In this document: one piece after another, positions 3,190 through 62,700 of the stretch
Layout of the letters: every line of letters starts with the position of its first letter
How positions within the stretch are numbered: the first letter of the stretch is position 1
Assembly: GCA_034780895.1 (NCBI GenBank)
Contig: JAUZTB010000087.1
Location: forward strand, 87,678,936-87,742,935
From: Rhynchobatus australiae
Lineage: Eukaryota
Direction: 5' to 3'
DNA: 64,000 nt
Notes under the pieces: model-generated
What the model was told of the DNA's origin: nothing
Seen by the model: only the letters and a program-made list of their open reading frames with translations
The model's database searches: none
Translations under genes and position numbers: made by a program

Positions 3190-3730
3190 AGTGCCTCATA
3201 GTGCATAGGCCCCAACCCTGGTAGCTTCAGACAAAGCCAAGGAAGACTTCTATTCCAAGCTTGAAAAAAATCGTGGTCTGCATCCCAAAGGGAGACAAAC
3301 TGATCCTCCTGGTCAACTTCAACCCTCCGGTAAGGCATGATCGGCAGAGTAGGAGTCCTTCAGGGTCCAATGAGGTCCTTCTCTTGACAAAATGCTTGGA
3401 GCATGGCCTCATCATAAGGTTTTGTCAGAGGGACGAGCACAAGATATCATGTCAACACCCCTGGTCCGAACACTTATACCTGTTAGAGGATATAATGGTC
3501 TGAATGAAGGATTGCAGAGATGTTCGCACTACCTGCACCACAACATGCACTGACTGCTGGACTGGCCATTGCCTAACCTCCATCAGCCTGTCACCAAAAC
3601 ATCACCGTTAACAGAAGCGGAGTTCTCAAGGACCCCACAAAGGCAGCGTCCCACTGACAGCTCCTCACCCACAGGAGCTGCCCAGATTCCGCAGTCTGTT
3701 GGCTGCGATGGAGTCTGCTATAACTGGAGC
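3190..3730 (+). mobile_element. RTE LINE endonuclease-region fragment
   Basis: IPKGDKLILLVNFN...LLLTKCLEHGLII...HKISCQHPWSEH resembles RTE endonuclease motifs (LGDFNA, SWQHPRSKHW). Confidence 0.7.
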
Positions 3731-3839: not shown

Positions 3840-5000
3840 TGAGGGAGGAACGGAGCTCACGGTTCAGGTGCACGACCTGAAGGCTTTACAGCGAATGGCG
3901 AGGACGTTATAATGTGGTGTAAAAGGGGAGAGAAAGGCAAACGTGTCTCGGGCGCCAAAGCGGATACAGTGCAGACTTGGTGCGGCGTGATTGGTGTGTG
4001 CGCGAACTCGGGAAGCGAGGTGGGAACTCGCGGCAACGTTTGATCTCAGTTGGTGCTGAATTAGTGGACGCTCTTTATGAGCAAAGTGGACAAAGGGGCA
4101 TGGTGAAGCCCGGCGCTGCAGCAGCGAACCACAGCCTCTGGTGGTGCAGAAATTCCTTGCCGACCATCCTCTTCCACCCCCCCGCTGNNNNCCAAAAGTT
4201 TCAGTAGTTAGCAACTACTTTTAATAAAAACAAAAGTGCACGGTTTGAAATGTCTTTTAATCGAAAAGGGCGGCGCGCCGCTTCTGGGGCAGGGACGTGA
4301 GGTGAGCGGTGCTCTGGGCTCTTGCTGTGCCCGGAGCGCCGGGACCACCCAGGGTGCAGGCAGGGAGAGCCGCCTCGCAGCCCGGCGCCATTGCACGAAG
4401 CGGCTGGACGAGCGGAGGGAGAACCCCGGGCTCAAGACTAGAGGCCGGTTGCGGGAAATATGCGGAGGAGCGGGCTCGGCGCAGGGAAGGTGAGGAGTGC
4501 CGTGCGGTGGAGGGTTCCCAGTGCGGGGAGAGGGGGGGGGGTGAAGGCGGGAAAGTTGTTGGGAGCGGAGCAGACAAAGGGAGCTGGTGGTCGGGTTCAG
4601 TCGCTGCACAGGACGGGGACGTGCGGGCCAAATGCTCCGGCGCCTCAAGACCCTCAGTTTGAGGTGGGTGAGAGCTTCCCTGGGGTTGGGGGGTGGGGGG
4701 TGTGGTTGACTCTCTGCCGGTTCCCGCCGGCAGGGCGCCGCCTGGCCCGGGCTTTGTGCGGAGCCGCCGGGGTCCCGCCATCCCCACCTCCCTCACGGCC
4801 GCCGACCTCCCTCCCATCGGGAACAGCCCGGGCCCGGCGATGAGCGGCGAACAAAACCAAAACTTTCTTTGAGGGAAGTGGATGGATTCGGGTGGTTTCT
4901 GGCGAGAAGGGGCGAGGCCAGTCGCCCCTCCGGGGAAGGTGGCTGGCTGGCTGGCGGCTGCATCCCCGGACACACCGCAGACGTGGAAAGCGACTCTCCT
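3840..5000 (+). promoter_or_regulatory. CpG island, probable GPR161 promoter and first (5' UTR) exon
   Basis: Only CpG-dense, GC-rich stretch in an otherwise AT-rich, CpG-depleted window; lies about 1.5 kb upstream of the first coding exon; candidate donors GAG|gtgagc (4301/4302) and AAG|gtgagg (4489/4490). The exact first exon cannot be fixed from sequence alone. Confidence 0.8.
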
Positions 5001-5569
5001 GGCAAATCACATGTAACTTGGGTTTGGGGGGGGTGGGGGCATTCGAATGAATCGTGCCATTCGCCTTACAATTTAAAAAAACAAACCACATGGTTATAAA
5101 ATTGCATTTTTTTTCCTCCCACTTTCTTGCCATTTCCCCATCCCATATCCAACCTGGTCTGAACCGTCCACTCACCCTAGTGGCCAGGGAACAAGACTGC
5201 CTTCTTTAAAAATCCCACACAGCTCATTAACTGGAAGATGGCTTGTGGGTTGCTGCAACAATGCCAGAGTAAATGTGAACAATGGAGATTGCATGACAGC
5301 GCATAAGTAAAGTGGGTTTGGTTCCTTGCAAAGAAAAACCTTCCCCGACCCCTCGTAGTCGTTAAGACTCACAGATCTGAAGGTGTTTGGAGTATTTGTA
5401 CCAACCACATTTATATAGCATTTTTTAAAAAGAATATAATAGCGTCCCAATAATCTAGTAGGCGTTTGCACTCAAATACAGATGATGAAGCTCCTTCATA
5501 GTGTTAGGTTTCAATGGGCCGGTATGAAGGAGTGGGAGGGAGGGTTGGGGAGGGATTTCCCGAGTTTTA

Positions 5570-6420
5570 CAATTGGCAGCTGAAACTTGTCTGCATTGAC
5601 TGGTGATTTAATTGGTTCAGAAATGGAAACTTACAGAACTGGACGAGATCACAAAGAAAGGATGGGATTTGTCGGGGTGGGGCGTTTGAGGGATTGACAA
5701 ACTAGGTTCAGAATTTTAAAATCATTTTTTTTAACCGGAACCCAGTGTGGATTAGCAAACAGAAGGGAGGTCGATTATTGTGGCTTGGTACACATTGGGG
5801 GATTTGAGCCAGAGCGTTGGATAGCTCACGTACACAGGAAAGTTGGTGAGGAGCTTGCTGGAAAAGTCAAGTCCAGAGGTAATAACATTGAAAGTGAGGA
5901 TAAGGATTTCAGCACTGAGTAAGCTGAGGAGGGACAACTGCAGATAGTGCGAAAGGGGTGGAAATATGCAGGCTTAGTAAGATACTAACTTTGTAAATGG
6001 TCGGGCGTAGTTTCAGAGCATTGCCAGAGTGGGGCAAGGAGATAATGATGAAGGGACAGAGATAGTGACAAGGAATGCAATCGGTAGCTTTGCTCTTCCC
6101 ATTGTGGATGTGGGATAAGCACCCTCAAAATTTAGAGATAGAGAAGGGGTTAAGAGCAGTGATGGTGACATTTTGGGTGTTGTCAGCTCACACACAGACA
6201 TTGATGTTTGAATGACACCGCCAGGGGGTAGATGGTAAGTAGGAGGGGGGTCAAGTATAGATCCTTGGGAGACATCAGTGGTGGTGGTGGGGGGTATGAC
6301 CAAAAGCCATCAAAGGCCATTCTCTAGATAAGAATGGAACCAGATGGTTTTGGTCCCTTCCACCTGGACAGTGCTGCAGAGGCATTAAAGGAGGGTGGTG
6401 TGGCTGATCCAGATGGGAAA
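5570..6420 (-). mobile_element. Old L2-like LINE fragment
   Basis: VSQGSILDPP resembles the RT motif GVPQGSVLGP; heavily decayed. Confidence 0.5.
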
Positions 6421-6566: not shown

Positions 6567-6925
6567 ATGAACTGTAACACCAGTGTCAATAGAAGTGGGG
6601 GGAACAACACTACCCATGAAGACGGTGGATTCGTCATTGCATCAGTTGCCATCATTGTTATTGCTGTGTTGATCTTTCTGGGAAACCTGGTGATAGTTGT
6701 AACTCTATACAAGAAATCTTACCTCTTGACACCGAGCAACAAGTTTGTCTTCAGTCTGACACTTTCTAATTTTCTGCTGTCTGTTCTGGTGCTCCCTTTT
6801 ATTATCGCAAGCTCAATCAAGCGAGAATGGATCTTTGGGGTGGTGTGGTGCAACTTTACAGCACTGCTCTGCATGCTTATCAACTCTGCCAGTATGATGA
6901 CCCTTGGAGTCATTGCAATAGATCG
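6567..6925 (+). CDS. GPR161: GPR161 coding exon 1 (N-terminus, TM1-TM3)
   Basis: Acceptor ttcag|G at 6525/6526, ATG at 6567. Encodes [10 protein letters not shown]...[42 protein letters not shown]...[10 protein letters not shown]...AIDR, as in GPR161. Donor CG|gtaag at 6925/6926 splits the Arg of the DRY motif. Confidence 0.97.
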
Positions 6926-12326: not shown

Positions 12327-13051
12327 GTACTATGCTGTTGTTTACCCAATGGTATATCCTATGAAAATAACTGGAAACCGTGCTGTTGTTGTCATTGTAT
12401 ACATTTGGCTGCACTCTCTAATTGGATGTCTTCCTCCTCTCTTTGGCTGGTCAGCGTTTGAGTTTGACCAATTCAAGTGGATCTGTACAGCTGCATGGTA
12501 CAAAGGAGTAAGTTACACTGTCTTTTGGCAGATATGGTGTGGACTGTTGCCATTTTTAGCCATGGTCATTTGCTATGGATTTATATTTCGTGTGGCCAGG
12601 CTCAAAGCACGGAAGATTCACTGTGGAACTATCATTGTGGTGCAAGAAGAATCCAATAAGGATGGAAGAAAAAATTCAAATTCCTCTACCTCTTCATCAG
12701 GAAGCAGAAGGAACGCCAGCAATAATATTGTTTATTCAGCCAATCAATGCAAAGCCCTGACAACTATTGTGATCGTGATTGGAGCTTTTGTTGTCACATG
12801 GGGACCTTACATGATAGTGATTAGCACTGAGGCACTTTATGGTAAAGGCACTGTGTCTCCAGGACTGGAGACACTGGTAACATGGCTGTCCTTTACTAGT
12901 GCTATATGTCATCCACTTATCTATGGCCTGTGGAACAAAACGGTACGCAAAGAGCTGCTAGGGATGTGCTTTGGTGACAGATACTACAGGGATTCATTTG
13001 TTCAACGTCAGAGGACTTCCAGGTTATTCAGCATCTCCAATCGCATCACAG
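12327..13051 (+). CDS. GPR161: GPR161 coding exon 2 (TM4-TM7 and proximal tail), 725 nt
   Basis: ctgcag|G TAC TAT completes DRYY. Encodes [14 protein letters not shown]...KARK...[28 protein letters not shown]...[10 protein letters not shown]. Donor G|gtaac at 13051/13052. Confidence 0.98.
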
Positions 13052-19447: not shown

Positions 19448-19567
19448 GCACTGATGTCATGCTATTGGAAGATTTCAATTCAGATGGAACTCATTATTCA
19501 TACCACAATAACTATCCAAACAGAAGACGGAGTTCTGTGACAATTGGTGAGCTCCCAGAATCACAAG
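19448..19567 (+). CDS. GPR161: GPR161 coding exon 4, 120 nt, with PKA consensus RRRSSV
   Basis: ttttag|GC acceptor; reads GTDVMLLEDFNSDGTHYSYHNNYPNRRRSSVTIGELPESQ; donor AAG|gtattt at 19567/19568; phase 1-1. Confidence 0.93.
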
Positions 19568-21060: not shown

Positions 21061-22313
21061 ACCTTCTATTTATATTATTGACATACATAGAGACTGAATA
21101 ATTCTGGCCTGAGTAATAATCACATCCTGTCAAATTGAGTACCTTCTCTTTCCACAATTGTCTATTCTATGCCACTTGGCCAATTTCCTAGTCAGGTCAG
21201 TAAATAATGGTTAATTCTATGATCTTCAATTTTAGACGTCTGTTTCTTTTTGAAATGTCTTCTGGAAGTTCAGATAAACAATCCCTTGTTATCTCCCCAT
21301 CCACCACTATAATTACCTGTTTAAAACAAATATCCAGCTTGTTCATTAGATATTCTCTCCCCATTACAAATGTGTGCTGGCTCTCTCAGATCAATTGAAA
21401 ATTCTCAGTGTTCAATCCATTCATGATTATACTTGTTGACAATTATATCCTGGCATCATACGTTTGGCCAACGGGTTAATAATTATATGGCTCCCCCTCT
21501 CATAGCACTTAGTGAAGTGTGCAGTTTCAAGTCTGAAGGAACAGTTGCCGCATAGAGAGAAATAAGGAAAATTACAGTTAGGGCAAATATGTTGCATCTT
21601 GGAATCATTATCTTCTTCGTTCTNNNNNNNNNNNNNNTAATTTTGATGAGAAGTTTTCTCTGATATATTTTCAAGGAATATGTGGGATTCTATCCTTTAT
21701 TTCTCTCATCATGTACAGTTATATGTAGAGCTTGAGCTACATCACCATTTTTGTTTGGATCTTCTTCCTGATGCCAAATGCAGTGTATGTTTAGTGTGTG
21801 TACATTCACATTATACCTGCTTTCAGTTAATAATTTCTATCAGCTACACAACATTAAGTATTTTTGCTTGGATAGCTTGCAATGTGCCAGGTACCTTTTT
21901 GTGTACACATCTGTAACCGCACTGGTACATTGCTGTCGTTGATCAGGGTGGTCAGAGTGATGGAGGGATGTGGTGACATTCAAAGACTTAAGAATCTTTA
22001 GTCCCTTCTCGCTACAAACCTGAAGAACCTCTGTCTATGCATAGTTTAGCATTCATCAGGACCTGTTGTGAATTATCAGATTATCTTTTTAGATTTCAGA
22101 TGTGGAGAGCATTTACAGCATACCTTCTCTTTCTCCCAGTTAGTTCATTTTCTATGCTGGGTAAGTCTGGGAAACATTAAAAAGCACTGTATATTGGAAT
22201 AATATTACAGCAAGGCCTTCAGGAAGCAAGGAGAAAATTACTAGAAAAAAAGATACTAGGTTGCACTTTGGTTTTAAAAAATAATTAAATATCTTATTTT
22301 ATTCCTTTTGCAG

Positions 22314-22525
22314 AGGAGGTTGACCAGTCTTCAGTCCTGCAAATCAAGGCAGATGTTCACAAAACTCTGGACAATTTTGCTGCCAGTTTGGCCAAAGCTA
22401 TTGAGATGGATGCCAAAATGAGCCTATTTGGGGAGAATTGTTTACCTGGAGATTTGTTTACTGTTATTAAAACTGTACCTGGAGGTACCAGCCAAGCAAC
22501 CAAAATCTCATCAGATCAGAGATGA
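22314..22525 (+). CDS. GPR161: GPR161 terminal coding exon to the first in-frame stop (TGA 22523-22525); frame stays open to TAA 22592-22594
   Basis: ttttgcag|AG acceptor; reads [49 protein letters not shown]...SDQR*. Contains the PKA-RI-binding amphipathic helix region. Spliced CDS is 506 aa to the TGA or 529 aa to the TAA. Confidence 0.92.
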
Positions 22526-23535
22526 AGGCTGGAGAGTATAGATGAAGGAATTGTTAATGATGGCACAGAGGAAGAGAATGCTCTGGAGGATTAAAGCAAA
22601 CATTCAATGTAGAAAAGACATTACGTTTATTTCTGGTGCGTTACATGGCTGAGGCTTAAAAAGTATCTATTAGTATGCCTTCATTTGTNNNNNNNNNNNN
22701 NNNNNNNNNNNNNNNNNNNNNNNNNNNNNNNNNNNNNNNNNNNNNNNNNNNNNNNNNNNNNNNNNNNNNNNGAGGTTGGCATCTGCACCATCTTATTGCT
22801 AATAACTTTGCTGCAATTGTGTTAATTCTAGAAAATAAATATTTTTGCCTTCCATTAGTGACTTCAGTTGAGAGCAGTGTCAATGCCTGCCTTATTGGGA
22901 ATGAGAATGGGCAGTCAGTCAGCTGGCTTCAGCAGCAGGTTTTTCATGAAGATATATCAAGTAATTAAAAACTACGCAATTCCATGTCTTGAGCCTCAGT
23001 CTGTGTTCCAAACAAAAATTATGGTGAAGGTGTTTGGGGTGCTGGAAAGGGGCAAAGAAAGAATGCAAAGAATATGTCAAGTAATAGTTCTTTCATATGG
23101 GCAAGAAGTTACTCTTAAGTTTCAGTTTAAGAGTTAGTTCTAGTTTGACAAACCCATAGATTATATAGTTTTGAGATGTTTATAAAATTAATGAACTAGA
23201 GGTGCTGCTTCATTTCCCTTTTAAATGTTTTGTTAGGTATTGATTTTTTTTAATGTCACCAAGGTTTTTGGATGCCTGTGGAAATGTGCAAGACCCAACA
23301 GGAATAGAACGTAAGCCAATACTGCACATTGCTGAGCATTATGGTTCTGACTTCAAATTATAGTAAGTGTACTATTTAGCAAATACTCACTGTCAAGTGT
23401 TCATGTTTCTAAGCCATGTACTAGTCAATTTTTAAAAATTTGGACAATTTATGTCTAAATTGTGTAGGTCAAACTAAAGTGTATTGAAGATTTGTAAGTT
23501 AAAACAAATGACAAATAGTCATTGCCATGTTTTAT

Positions 23536-23546
23536 ATTAAAATAAA
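23536..23546 (+). terminator. Candidate GPR161 polyadenylation signal
   Basis: Overlapping ATTAAA/AATAAA about 950 nt after the CDS, followed by T-rich sequence. Other AATAAA hexamers at 22834 and 23706. Confidence 0.45.
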
Positions 23547-24299
23547 CCTGAACAAGTTATATTAACATTTATCTTTCAATAGGTTTGACTGATTTTAAAT
23601 ATCTTACTATGCTTGTTCTTGGTGTCAAGTGCACTGAAGTGGGGTAAGGTCCGAGGACACCAGAGGAAAGGTAGAGTTGTGTGTTTGGCTGCTGGGGATA
23701 TCAAGAATAAATGAAACCTAGATATGTATAAATATGGTTTTAATATTTGCTATAATGTTTTATGAGCATTAGAGTTCCTGGACAATATTATTACATTGGA
23801 TAAGTAAATAAGATGGAGATGCAGTATATGGTAGGAATACTTATCAACATGATTATTAAATGGCATATCATATCTGGTATATTCATCTCTGCTATGTTAC
23901 CTTTTCAGCTTTAGAAAAGTATTATCAATAATTACTTCTCTTGTTGGACCCAAGTGTATAAAGCAAAAATGCATGTTAGAACTGGCAAGAAAGAAATTAG
24001 TCATTTGGCTGTATTATATTACTTAACTCTTCAGGAGAGAATAGTTAACATATTTATTAACCCTTCAGGAGAGTTAGTAAACTTAGAGGTGTTTATTTAA
24101 GTCATTCTGTGAGGCAAATTGCACAATTTGAGTTATCTTCTTTGAGCTGTCATTTACAAGGGGCAATGTGAAAATATTGACTTTATACACAGCATATTAC
24201 AGTCTCTCTGACCATGAAACACAAGTTAGGATGCAGTACTTAAGGAATAATTGTTGAAGCCCCACTTGCAGTTCAGTTGACTTTTTGTTTAAGGAGGAA

Positions 24300-24730
24300 T
24301 ATACTTGCATTTGGGAAGTTTAATGAAGGGGTTGGCTAATGAGGAAAAATTGAGCAGGTTGGCCCTGGAGTCTATGGAGAATAGAAGAATGAGGGGTGAT
24401 CTTATTGAAATTGAAGATTCTGAAGGAGTTTGACAAGGTAAAAGAATTCCCCACAAAAGGGAAACAAAAACCAGGGAGTATAATTTCCGACTAAGGGGTT
24501 AAGTCAGATGAGGAGAAATTTCTTCTGACTGTTGTGAACTGTGGCATTCTCCTGGAGAGCTATGAAGATTGAATCAGTAAACATTCAGGCTGAGGTTAAG
24601 CGATTTTTGAACTATGTTACAGAAAAAGACAGTAAAGTGGAACTTGTGTCAAGATTGGTATCAGTCATGACCTTATTTGAATGAAGAAGTAGGCTTGAGT
24701 GGTTTGTTGCTCCAATTTCTTATATTCTAT
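24300..24730 (+). mobile_element. CR1 LINE 3' fragment between the two converging genes
   Basis: AGAAGAATGAGGGGTGATCTTATTGAAA (RRMRGDLIE), GATGAGGAGAAATTTCTTC and a CR1-type tail. Confidence 0.75.
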
Positions 24731-25234
24731 GTTGGAACTTTCAACCTTTTTAGTGGGTCACAGGAAAAACTAATGTAATTCTGATTTTTGGTGCACCAAC
24801 TGACAATTAAACCAGTAGTTTTTTTAAACAACCAGAAACTTTAATGAATTTCTCTTCCCCCCCNNNNNNNNNNNNACATGCATAACAGCAGGTTTAGAAA
24901 GGTTTCATCTTAACCCTCTTACTAGTGTTTTTTAATCTTCACACTCAAAACACTGATCCAAGCACATACAGTTGCACATTAGAGAATATTGCACTTGAAA
25001 CCTCCAAGCATCTCATCCACAGAACATAATAATTAAAAGCAACTTACTTATTCTTTCCCACCTTTCTCATCCTAATTCATGCACACATTTTGCACAAAGA
25101 AATATTCATATTAAATGTACCCTTTTTTTTCCAGAAAAGGAACTAAAATAACACTAAGGCTTTGTACGGAAAATATACTAAATTTTCTGTAATACAAATT
25201 TCTTGATGCTCTTTTTTTGAATCTGGACAATTAA

Positions 25235-25293
25235 TTATTCATCATCTTCATTCTCTTGACCAGAGCCTTCTGAACGGTCACCTTCCAACCGAT
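25235..25293 (-). CDS. DCAF6: DCAF6 last coding exon
   Basis: Minus strand cacag|AT CGG TTG...; reads (D)RLEGDRSEGSGQENEDDE* with TAA at 25237-25235, the DCAF6 C-terminus. Confidence 0.96.
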
Positions 25294-25769
25294 CTGTGTA
25301 ATACATTAAATATTAGTCTCAGTATTTAAAATCTTAGTAGTTCAGAATCTATTCAGGAAGATGTAATAAAACTGAGGCAGGTTGTTAAAACAATGTTTAC
25401 ACAATTAATACTCATCTAGCTTTTGAACAAGCTGTCTTCCACAATAATTTTTTAAAAATCATTTTTAATTACCTTGAATCTACCATTTTGGACCAACTTT
25501 TAAATTTAGAGTTGTTACACAGACTTAGTGCTACAACATGTTGCCTAGAAACCTAATAAATGACTGTTTTCCATTTTGGGAATCTCTGAATAACAGAAGC
25601 CGCCAGCTTGAGGCAAAAAACAACATGGAAGATTGACGTACTTCAGAATTTACTTTGCACATTGAAAGAGAAGAGATTAACACTTGGGGAATCTAACTAC
25701 CTTTCCTGAATTTTAAATTTAGTGCATTTTGTGTATCTCAATGATTTCAAGTAATGGGTTTCAGGGAAA

Positions 25770-26690
25770 TCAAAACAAAAATTGCAGATACTGGAAATGT
25801 GAAATAAAAACATAATAGGTAGCAGGTCAGGCAGCATTTCTGGAAAGAGAACAATGTTTTAGGTTGAATACCCTTCATCAGAACTGGGAAATAAAGCAAA
25901 TAAATTTGTATTATGTTGCAGAGAGTGTGGGGAGGGATAGGACAAGGGGAGTCTTTTGGTTTGTTTGTAAAAACAGTCATCTGGTGTGTGTGTGCACGAG
26001 AGAGAGAAAATCTGAACAAAGGAACATAAAAGCTGTGAAATGCAGAGCTGTAGGACATGTGTAGAGGTCAGACTGTGCTGCTAATGGAGAGTGAAAAGCT
26101 GGACTGGTCAGTTCTAGTACAGATTGGGAAAGCATATTACTCAAAATTGTAGAGTTCTCTCAGGCCTAGTCAGATGATGTGATAATTGGCCTTTTTAGAA
26201 CAGCACAGGAGGCCACAGACACTAAGTTCAGAGTAACAGAATGAGTGACAGGCAACAAGAATTGCAGGGTTGCCCCTGCAAATTAAAAGCAGGTGCTCAG
26301 CCAAGCCATCATTCAATCTGCATTACATTTCTCCAATGTGGAGGAGACCATATTGTGAACACCAAGTACAGTACATTGGGGGGGGAAAAAAAGTGCAAGT
26401 GAATTGCTACTTCACCTAGGAGGACTATTTAAGTTCCTGGATTCTGGGAACAGGTAAAAGAATAGGTGTTACGTCTCCTGTGGTTGCATGCTAAAGAGGG
26501 GGAACAGTTAGTAGAGATGGACGAGCAGACTAGGGAGTTGGAAAGGGAATAGTCCCTTCNNNNNNNNNNNNNNNNNNNNNGGAAGAGTATGTCTGGTGGC
26601 GGAATCTCACTGATAGTGATGAAGGATGATTTGTTGAATGTGAAGATGGTGAGGTGGAAGGTATGGACCGGGGACCTCACCTTTGTCTAA
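25770..26690 (-). mobile_element. Penelope-like element fragment in the last DCAF6 intron
   Basis: pLTR-type end with CTGATGA motif at about 25880 on the minus strand; decayed YCTWCSQYGLLHIGE..RLNDGLAEH GIY-YIG motif near 26290-26375. Confidence 0.7.
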
Positions 26691-59774: not shown

Positions 59775-62700
59775 AGAGAAGAGAAAACTGCTAACAAAAA
59801 AACATAAGTTCTTTAACTGAATGCATGCAGCATTCATAAGCTAGACAAATTGATAGCACAAATAAAAATTGCTATTACAGAGATATGGTTCCAAGGTCAC
59901 CAAGGCTGTGAATAGAATATTCTGAGATACTCAAATATGATCATAAAGGAAAAGGAGACAAGAGTGAGATCGATACAATATTGAGAAATGACGACTTAGA
60001 AGATCAAGATGTAGCATCAATTTAGCCAGAGATAAGAAATAGCAAGGATAAAAACTTTACTGGTGGTGTAGTCTATTGCCCTCCCAAAAAGTCATAACAT
60101 AGGATAGAGGATAAATCAAGAAATATTGGGGTCTTATAAAAAAGATACTACAGTGAAGGTGAGTGACTTTAATATTCATATAGATTGGACAAATCAAATT
60201 GGCAAAGGTCTTAAATAGCAGTTCATGGAGTTTATTACAGAAAGTTTCCTAGAACAAGGTGTTGTGAGGCATGTTGTTTAGACCTGGTCATGTGTAACAA
60301 GATGGGATTAATTGATGTCATCCTCTGGGTAAGAATGATCATAACATGGTAGAATTTCATATTCAGTTCGAGAGTGGAAAGCTCACATCTGGAATCAGTA
60401 CCTTCAACTTAGTTTCAAAGGTACAAAGACAGAGTTGGCTAAAATAGACTGGGAAAATAGATTAAATGGTAAGACAGAAGATAAACAACGACAGACATTT
60501 AAGAATATTATTCCTAATACCCAAAGATATATTCCATTGTGAAATAAGGATTCCACATGAAGGACGATCAATCCTTGGTTGACTAAAAAAGGATGGTATC
60601 AAATTGAAAGAAAAGACTTGTACACTGAAAAGACTGGAAGGTTGAGAAACCAGCAAAAGATGATTAAAAAATAAGAAAATCAGTTATCAGGATAAGCATC
60701 CTAATAATAGTAGAAAATCAGGGAGCAAAAAAGAGGGAGGAATTTAAAATAATCACTTTAACTAGAGAAAAAATTTAATAGATTAACTAATAGAACTAAA
60801 GGCTAACAGGTCTCTGGGACCTCCATTCATACAAAAGAGAAGGCATACAATATGGCAAAGATTAGTGGGAAGCCAGAGGATTGGGAAGCCTTTAAAAGCT
60901 AACAGAGGACAACTAAAAAAACTATAAGAGAGAAAATGAAATATGAGGGTAAATTAGCCAATAATATAAAAGAAGATTCCAAAAGTTCTTTTTTTTTTAA
61001 AAATGTACATAAAGGTTAAGAGAGAGGCAAGAGTGGANNNNNNNNNNNNNNNNNNNNNNNNNNNNNNNNNNNNNNNNNNNNNNNNNNNNNNNNNNNNNNN
61101 NNNNNNNNNNNNNNNNNNNNNNNNNNNNNNNNNNNNNNNNNNNNNNNNNNNNNNNNNNNNNNNNNNNNNNNNNNNNNNNNNNNNNNNNNNNNNNNNNNNN
61201 NNNNNNNNNNNNNNNNNNNNNNNNNNNNNNNNNNNNNNNNNNNNNNNNNNNNNNNNNNNNNNNNNNNNNNNNNNNNNNNNNNNNNNNNNNNNNNNNNNNN
61301 NNNNNNNNNNNNNNNNNNNNNNNNNNNNNNNNNNNNNNNNNNNNNNNNNNNNNNNNNNNNNNNNNNNNNNNNNNNNNNNNNNNNNNNNNNNNNNNNNNNN
61401 NNNNNNNNNNNNNNNNNNNNNNNNNNNNNNNNNNNNNNNNNNNNNNNNNNNNNNNNNNNNNNNNNNNNNNNNNNNNNNNNNNNNNNNNNNNNNNNNNNNN
61501 NNNNNNNNNNNNNNNNNNNNNNNNNNNNNNNNNNNNNNNNNNNNNNNNNNNNNNNNNNNNNNNNNNNNNNNNNNAGTAACAGGCAGGATAGACAAAGGAG
61601 AGTCAGTGGATGTTGTTTTCTTGGATTTTCAGAAGGCCTTTGACAAGGTGCCACACATGAAGCTGCTAAACAAGATAGGAGCCCATGGTATTACAGGAAA
61701 GGTACTAGCATGGATAGAAGATTGGTTGACAGGCAGAAGGTAAAGAGTGGGGATAAAGGGATCCTTTTCAGGATGGCTGCTGTTGGCTATTTCAGTTCTG
61801 CAATGTTGGGATTACAATTTATCACTTTGTATATTAACGATCTAGATGAAGGAACTGATGGGATTGTGGCCAAATTTGCAGATGATATGAAGATAGATGG
61901 AGGAACAGGTAGTGTCTCAGAGGCAGGGAGTCTGCAGAAAGACCTGGACAGGTCGGGAGAGTGAGGAAAGAAGTGGTAAATGGAATACAACATAGGGAAG
62001 TGTGGGGTTATGCACTCTGGTAGGAAGATAAAGGGGTAGACTATTTTCTAAATGGAGACAAAATTAAGAAATCAAGGTGCAAAGCAACTTGGGAGTCCAA
62101 GTGCAGGATTCCCCCAAGGTTAACTTGCAGGTTGAGTCAGTAGTACGGAAGGCAAGTGCAATGAAAGCATTCACTTCGAGAGGATTAGAAATATAAAATC
62201 AAGAATGTACTGTTGAGGCTTTATAGGGCATTGGTCAGACTGCATGTGGAATATTGAGAGCAATTTTGGGCCCTGTATCTAAGGAAGAATATCCTGGCCC
62301 TGGAGAGGGTCCAGAAGAGGTTCACAAGAATGATCCCAGGCTTAACACATGAGGAGTGTTTGCTATCTCTGGGCCTGCACTTGATGGAGTTCAGGAGGGG
62401 GATCTCACTGAAACCTACCAGATACTGAAAGGCCTGGATAGAGTGGATGTGGAAAGGATGTTTCCATTAGTAGGAGAGTCTTGGATCTGAGGACACAACC
62501 TCAAAATTGGGAGATGTCCTTTTAAAACTGAGATGAGGAGGAATTTCTTCAGCCAGAGGGTGGTGAATCTGCGGAGTTCGTTGACACAGAGGGCTGCGGA
62601 GGCCAAGTCATTGGCTGTATTTAAGGCAGAGATTGATAGGTTCTTGAATGGTAAGGGATTAAGGATCATAGGGAGAAGGCAAGAAAATGGGATGAGAAAG

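What the first reader, a model, noticed from the sequence alone, without database searches (positions are those of the whole stretch)
22523..22594. In-frame TGA inside the conserved GPR161 tail, with the coding tail intact behind it
Seen: the last exon reads SDQR-TGA-RLESIDEGIVNDGTEEENALED-TAA with no frameshift. Recalled knowledge: human GPR161 ends with QRLQLQSIEEGDV..., so the TGA sits at a hydrophobic (Leu-like) position within a conserved motif, and reading through gives 529 aa, the length I recall for the human protein. Inference: this is a recent nonsense allele (for example TTA to TGA) trimming 23 residues from a Hedgehog-pathway repressor, a consensus error, or stop-codon readthrough producing two tail isoforms. 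The TGA-AGG context is not the known leaky TGA-CTAG context. As it is in the last exon it should escape NMD, and the PKA-binding helix is retained.
Basis: partly seen in the sequence, partly recalled or inferred. Interest (0 to 1): 0.8.

Follow-up and report, generated by a model that had tools for sequence, protein, structure and literature searches.

The report
Likely assembly-error stop in ray GPR161
The early stop codon in this ray's GPR161 gene is in the assembled sequence, but five related organisms have an ordinary leucine codon there and the stop comes with three other one-off changes in 32 bases beside an assembly hole, so it is most likely a sequencing error and not a new way of making two protein forms.

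Summary
The TGA (22523-25, codon 507 of 529) and the intact 22-codon tail are in the sequence. It is not conserved. Six of six laid runs from five related organisms read TTA or TTG. Of 35 cartilaginous-fish proteins that include this exon, 32 have Leu and 3 Met; human has Leu. The cluster lies 165-196 bp from an 83-N hole in a draft assembly with a hole every 2-3 kb. That points to one event: most likely one bad read in a thinly covered spot (0.72), otherwise one real complex mutation (0.25). Readthrough has no support: TGA-A context, no stem-loop, no SECIS, no shared stop (0.02). The source reads were not among the indexed runs (best share 0.71), so error versus real allele is inferred, not shown.

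The parts
6567..6925 (+). GPR161 first coding exon (ATG to TM3, 7tm_1 positions 1-83)
12327..13051 (+). GPR161 coding exon 2 (TM3-TM7, helix 8, start of the arrestin-binding stretch)
   Evidence: motif as printed in PMC4810300
18237..18341 (+). GPR161 coding exon 3
19448..19567 (+). GPR161 coding exon 4
   Evidence: junction to the last exon seen in RNA reads of organism D
22314..22594 (+). GPR161 last coding exon, to the ancestral TAA
22352..22402 (+). Stretch homologous to the human PKA-RI-anchoring amphipathic helix (limits approximate; window L462 at 22388-90 inferred to match human L465); upstream of the TGA, so kept
   Evidence: alignment to PDB 8smv_R; role of L465 from bioRxiv 10.1101/2023.05.23.540554 passages
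22493..22524 (+). Cluster of four window-only transversions: 22493 (K497Q), 22497 (G498A), 22500 (N499T), 22524 (L507stop)
   Evidence: 6 of 6 laid runs differ from the window at all four sites
22523..22525 (+). In-frame TGA at codon 507; TTA in organism A, TTG in organisms B, C, D, E
22526..22594 (+). 22 sense codons plus TAA behind the TGA; no difference listed for any laid run
22689..22771 (.). 83-N hole; contigs of four runs bridge it with exactly 83 letters, so it is a hole in ordinary 3' UTR sequence
   Evidence: table 5 and 8

Best explanation
The TGA is most likely a local base-calling error in a draft short-read assembly, and the animal would make normal 529-aa GPR161 with Leu at 507. 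Shown: the stop is absent from every relative examined and travels with three other window-only missense changes in 32 bp next to an assembly hole. Inferred: one degraded read (or very few) supplied the consensus at this thinly covered spot. Read on the minus strand the four changes are A>C, T>G, C>G, T>G in order of rising cycle number for a read starting near the hole, the pattern expected from signal loss toward a read end (channel logic recalled; platform unknown).
For: 6 of 6 laid runs (of 24 listed), 5 organisms, 5 studies read T at 22524 and the conserved letters at 22493/22497/22500, including 8 of 8 raw RNA reads of organism D at 22524. 32 Leu and 3 Met in 35 proteins that have the exon, 19 named species; G498 in 35 of 35, K/R497 in 35 of 35. 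In the last exon the closest relative differs from the window at only these 4 sites, all protein-changing, none silent. Clustering: p 0.006 for three more window-only sites within 32 bp of the TGA site, 0.045 for any such cluster in 3,815 bases, 1e-4 by codons over the whole protein and 0.004 within the last exon; all post hoc. All four are transversions, three of the T>G/A>C class that PMC13218037 (abstract and first half of Results read) reports as a two-colour Illumina artefact; two of these three sit in its NT[TG] context. The assembly is fragmented: 19 N runs in the 64-kb window, 38 in 114 kb of GPCR loci and 108 in 227 kb of protocadherin loci, about 10% N, many inside coding exons. No inverted template within 300 bp explains the cluster. 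A second nonsense codon sits in the PTAFR gene of this assembly at a human Tyr.
Against: The source reads were not seen: no listed run holds the window's exact sequence (best share 0.71) and organism A is 2.1% diverged (81 of 3,870), so no same-species read contradicts the TGA. The assembly is not riddled with stops: 1 of 147 best GPCR matches and 1 of 150 best cadherin matches (selected for high score). The window's branch is not inflated overall (31 window-only sites of 81 differences). Window-only sites are not significantly enriched near N runs (11 of 31 within 200 bp, 7.6 expected, p 0.12). The T>G/A>C excess is weak (9 vs 2, p 0.065; 6 vs 2 without the cluster). The stop-making change itself is in an NTA context, not NT[TG], and PMC13218037 says the artefact is negligible for germline calls at normal depth. 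A503S in the same stretch is shared with organism A, so real change happens here. The PTAFR stop is over 900 bp from an N run and is itself unverified.
Confidence: 0.72

Rival explanations
1. A real single multi-nucleotide mutation created all four changes; the assembled haplotype carries a truncating allele (private or heterozygous, less likely fixed in the species). It would give a 506-aa receptor that escapes NMD (last exon; established rule), keeps the arrestin site and PKA-RI helix, and lacks the conserved distal acidic motif.
For: Clustered de novo mutations exist: about 3% of SNVs, mostly pairs, largest cluster 8 (PMC5147774 passages). Real doublets occur in this lineage (22613/22616 in organism A). 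The T>G makes a 9-nt direct repeat with 22540-48, which only 6 of 843 possible single changes in the exon do, as a templated slip might. Organism A is a different taxon, so its TTA does not exclude a TGA here. Background stops in the assembly are rare.
Against: Four-change clusters are a small minority of an already small class; all four changes are damaging at sites nearly invariant across 19 species; no inverted template found; no second genome, run or protein carries any of the four.
Confidence: 0.25
2. Programmed stop-codon readthrough (or UGA recoding to Sec or, after A-to-I editing, Trp) gives a short and a long tail isoform.
For: Only that the frame stays open for 22 codons to the ancestral TAA, and UGA is the stop type used in the known leaky UGA-CUAG context.
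Against: No relative shares the stop. Context is UGA-A, described as among the commonest eukaryotic stop signals, basal readthrough under 0.1% (10.1101/2021.04.18.440353 passages). The 150 nt from the stop fold no better than shuffles (z +0.89). No SECIS or readthrough family in 22300-26400 at E up to 1; 3 chance-level hits only. The residue is Leu/Met in relatives, not Cys, Trp or Arg. An intact tail is expected by chance (0.59).
Confidence: 0.02
3. The stretch is a chimera with a paralog, pseudogene or contaminant.
For: A local block of several differences is what a short chimeric patch looks like.
Against: One match only in the own genome by protein and DNA search; the variant letters match no relative and include no silent change.
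Confidence: 0.01

Closest known systems
GPR161 of Pristis pectinata (XP_051869277.1, P0005) and other batoid orthologs
   Same: 97.9% identical over 529 positions, same length as the read-through product, identical last 22 residues
   Different: 11 differences, 5 of them in codons 497-507; Leu at 507 instead of a stop
Human GPR161 (PDB 8smv chain R)
   Same: PKA-RI helix and the distal QR-L-x-L-x-SI-(D/E)-EG motif align (E 5e-18); Leu at the TGA position
   Different: No stop at this position; no paper in the library searched reports GPR161 readthrough as far as 4 listings holding both words show (titles and abstract starts only)
Programmed readthrough genes with UGA-CUAG
   Same: UGA followed by an open frame to a second stop
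   Different: Context is UGA-AGG; the stop is not conserved; the extension is the ancestral coding tail, not a conserved post-stop extension
Mouse Gpr161 vacuolated lens (vl) truncation
   Same: C-tail nonsense truncation that keeps the arrestin site; distal tail 402-558 is needed for ciliary exit (PMC4810300 passages)
   Different: vl removes the whole distal tail including the PKA helix; this stop would remove only 23 residues, whose role was not mapped in the passages read
T>G/A>C artefact of two-colour Illumina chemistry (PMC13218037)
   Same: 3 of 4 cluster changes are of this class, 2 of 3 in NT[TG]
   Different: The stop-making change is in NTA; platform and depth of this assembly are unknown

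Membership tests
GPR161 ortholog | 7tm_1 domain and best similarity to named GPR161 proteins over the full length | tested here: met
   PF00001 in both TM exons; 82-98% identity to 11 named orthologs compared
GPR161 ortholog | C-tail arrestin-binding stretch and PKA-RI amphipathic helix | tested here: met
   Motif printed in PMC4810300 matches exon 2/3 translation; helix aligns to 8smv_R
Programmed stop-codon readthrough | Stop codon conserved across related species | tested here: not met
   0 of 6 runs, 0 of 35 proteins
Programmed stop-codon readthrough | Leaky 3' context (UGA-CUAG) or downstream structure | tested here: not met
   TGA-AGG; fold z +0.89
Programmed stop-codon readthrough | Purifying selection behind the stop while the stop is in place | tested here: inconclusive
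   No change in 66 nt, but 0.59 probability by chance on this short branch
Programmed stop-codon readthrough | Ribosome footprints or peptides beyond the stop | not testable with these tools
   No same-species RNA holder listed
Selenoprotein (UGA = Sec) | SECIS element in the 3' UTR and Cys/Sec in homologs | tested here: not met
   No SECIS hit in 22300-26400 (83 bases are N); Leu/Met in homologs
Template-switch mutation cluster | Variant block is an inverted copy of nearby sequence | tested here: not met
   No exact inverted or direct template for the block or sub-blocks within 300 bp, beyond 5-6 nt chance matches; exact matches only
Assembly consensus error | Source reads disagree with the consensus or depth is 1-2 | not testable with these tools
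   Source reads not among the 24 listed runs (best share 0.71)
Assembly consensus error | Private, clustered, selection-blind changes near a low-coverage hole | tested here: met
   nearness to holes is not significant as a general trend (p 0.12)

The most novel reading that the evidence does not exclude
One complex mutation really cut the conserved last 23 residues off GPR161 and is fixed in this ray species, making it a natural vertebrate knock-out of the distal acidic tail motif of a Hedgehog repressor (with or without trace readthrough).
Probability: 0.07. Interest if true: 0.45.

Novelty: not a real feature. Interest (0 to 1): 0.08.

Why it matters
As a probable error it matters only as a warning: lone in-frame stops in this hole-rich assembly (another is in PTAFR) need read support before any biology is built on them. 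If the allele were real and fixed, it would show that a motif kept from chimaera to human is dispensable in one ray and would point at which part of the distal tail drives ciliary exit, which the passages read map only to mouse residues 402-558.

Tried and rejected
Same-species reads: none found; no RNA holder listed, which is no evidence on expression. A search for short protein fragments ending at the TGA found only a lungfish piece and one weak unnamed hit. Second copy or pseudogene: none. Template switching: not found. SECIS, stem-loop: not found. Enrichment of window-only changes near N runs: not significant at 100, 200 or 300 bp (p 0.71, 0.12, 0.08). That four random changes are all non-silent is unremarkable without selection (0.38); it counts only against a background of purifying selection. 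A first exon join had exon 3 off by one base and was corrected. A cryptic intron removing the TGA was considered by eye (a GT 38 nt upstream) and dropped as too short; not tested on reads of this species. Two apparent protocadherin stops (L041, L050) lie outside the coding part and were dropped. Earlier scan notes: three look-ups returned nothing. No supplementary files were read; Supplementary Fig. 6b of the GPR161 structure preprint may bear on tail conservation.

Full report
Observation. The window carries TGA at 22523-25 and TAA at 22592-94 in one frame. Joining five GT-AG exons gives 530 codons with stops only at 507 and 530: 506 aa as written, 529 aa if read through. Both TM exons hit PF00001. 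The closest named protein is Pristis pectinata GPR161, 529 aa, 97.9% identical, so the window is from a ray (inferred). Protein and DNA searches of the own genome each find this exon once.

Is the stop shared? No. A run search listed 24 runs, best word share 0.71, so none holds the window's exact sequence. I laid 6 of them in two calls: X1 and X2 (organism A), X3 (B), X4 (C), X22 (D, raw RNA reads), X15 (E); five studies. All 6 read T at 22524: TTA in A, TTG in B-E. In X22, 8 of 8 reads over the site read TTG. X3's contig has depth under 5, the others 5-12. Of 37 proteins fetched (15 of 20 members of the shark cluster were listed), 2 lack this exon; of the other 35 (19 named species plus unnamed skate-like contigs, rows partly redundant) 32 have Leu and 3 (chimaera) Met, none X or an early end. 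Human GPR161 in PDB 8smv has Leu. Organism A differs from the window at 81 of 3,870 aligned bases (2.1%), so it is a close relative and not the source; its TTA fixes the ancestral state but is not a same-species check.

The TGA does not come alone. All 6 runs also differ from the window at 22493, 22497 and 22500, which turn the conserved K-G-N into Q-A-T. G498 is present in 35 of 35 proteins and K/R497 in 35 of 35. These four sites are the only differences between the window and organism A in the 281-bp exon; none is silent. Elsewhere in the protein there is one other window-only residue (A250; state in organism A unknown); S503 is shared with A and so real. Using sites where X1 and X4 agree against the window (31 in 3,815 bases; taken from a table cut to its 40 best-supported rows, 294 rows not shown, so possibly incomplete), the chance of three more such sites within 32 bp of the TGA site is 0.006 and of any four-in-32 cluster 0.045. 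By codons it is 1e-4 for the whole protein and 0.004 for the last exon. All are post hoc, but together they say one event, not slow decay. Relaxed selection after truncation cannot explain changes upstream of the stop.

Quality of the assembly. The window has 19 N runs; one of 83 N starts 165 bp after the changed base, and contigs of four runs bridge it with exactly 83 letters. In 30 GPCR loci and 41 protocadherin loci there are 38 runs in 114 kb and 108 in 227 kb, about 10% N. 24 of 24 N runs of lengths other than 10 or 100 inside protocadherin coding alignments keep the frame, against 5 of 9 runs of 10 or 100: the holes are exactly sized gaps in ordinary sequence, as in a reference-guided short-read draft of modest depth (inferred; some could be withheld stretches). 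In-frame stops are uncommon: 1 of the 147 best-scored 7tm_1 matches (of 2,368 candidates) and 1 of the 150 best cadherin matches (of 836). The GPCR case is PTAFR with TAG where human has Tyr; unverified. This background cuts both ways: such stops recur in conserved genes here, but the assembly is not generally bad, and window-only sites are not significantly closer to holes (11 of 31 within 200 bp, 7.6 expected, p 0.12).

Error signature. All four changes are transversions (background 14 of 27; 0.07 for four). Three are T>G/A>C, the class reported as an artefact of two-colour Illumina chemistry, enriched at NT[TG] (PMC13218037, abstract and first half of Results). Two of the three fit that context; the stop-making one does not, and the paper calls the effect negligible for germline calls at normal depth. 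On the minus strand the changes read A>C, T>G, C>G, T>G, each a loss of one colour channel (recalled), at spacings that tighten away from the hole as at a read's 3' end (inferred). The platform is unknown. The alternative, a real multi-nucleotide mutation, is possible: about 3% of human de novo SNVs are clustered, mostly as pairs (PMC5147774 passages). Template switching (PMC9435742 passages) found no inverted template within 300 bp. The T>G does create a 9-nt direct repeat 20 bp downstream, which 6 of 843 single changes would; this may be chance or a templated slip, biological or computational.

Readthrough. The context is UGA-A, not UGA-CUAG; basal readthrough is given as under 0.1% (10.1101/2021.04.18.440353 passages). 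The downstream 150 nt fold worse than the shuffle mean (z +0.89); Rfam gives no SECIS and 3 chance-level hits in 4.1 kb. The unchanged tail has probability 0.59 on this short branch. One literature search for GPR161 with readthrough gave 4 papers, seen as listings only, none on this topic by title.

If real. The 506-aa protein would keep the arrestin-binding stretch (PMC4810300 passages) and the PKA-RI helix, whose L465 is needed to repress ciliary GLI2 (10.1101/2023.05.23.540554 passages; window L462 by alignment, inferred). It would lose only the distal acidic motif, part of the region needed for ciliary exit but not mapped finely in what I read. A mild or no phenotype is the likely outcome (inference).

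Verdict. Real in the assembly, not conserved, most likely a local consensus error (0.72), else a real one-event allele (0.25; fixed in the species about 0.07), readthrough 0.02. Interest 0.08.

Noticed in passing
G000:C68:7114365, minus strand (L033): PTAFR (platelet-activating factor receptor) ortholog has an in-frame TAG in TM1 where human has Tyr; rest of the frame intact. Error or null allele, unverified.
   Followed up: partly
G000:C87:5391844 (L034) and L062 about 3390-3400: One clustered protocadherin exon with an in-frame TAA and one with a frameshift among 41 loci fetched; could be pseudogenes or errors.
   Followed up: partly
G000:C87:4.7-6.1 Mb: Large clustered protocadherin array, at least 41 variable exons fetched, on the same contig as the window.
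   Followed up: partly
window 22511 (codon 503): A503S is shared by the window and organism A but by none of 35 proteins: a real lineage change inside the same tail stretch.
   Followed up: yes
window 22520-22528 and 22540-22548: The stop-making base completes a 9-nt direct repeat 20 bp apart; 6 of 843 single changes in the exon would do so.
   Followed up: partly
P0005: The Pristis pectinata GPR161 record is labelled LOW QUALITY PROTEIN by its source; it shows Leu at 507 and no X, so the reason lies elsewhere or is hidden.
   Followed up: no
window 24343-24501 and 25774-25932: High-copy repeats (summed contig depth in the thousands in relatives' runs) behind the 3' UTR.
   Followed up: no
window 4001-6000: GC-rich island (54% against about 38%) upstream of the first coding exon; likely the GPR161 promoter or a non-coding first exon.
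   Followed up: no
window 23600-64000: None of 14 long non-GPR161 open frames tested from the window hit Pfam; 61644-61961 looks by eye like a LINE reverse-transcriptase fragment (recalled, no hit).
   Followed up: partly
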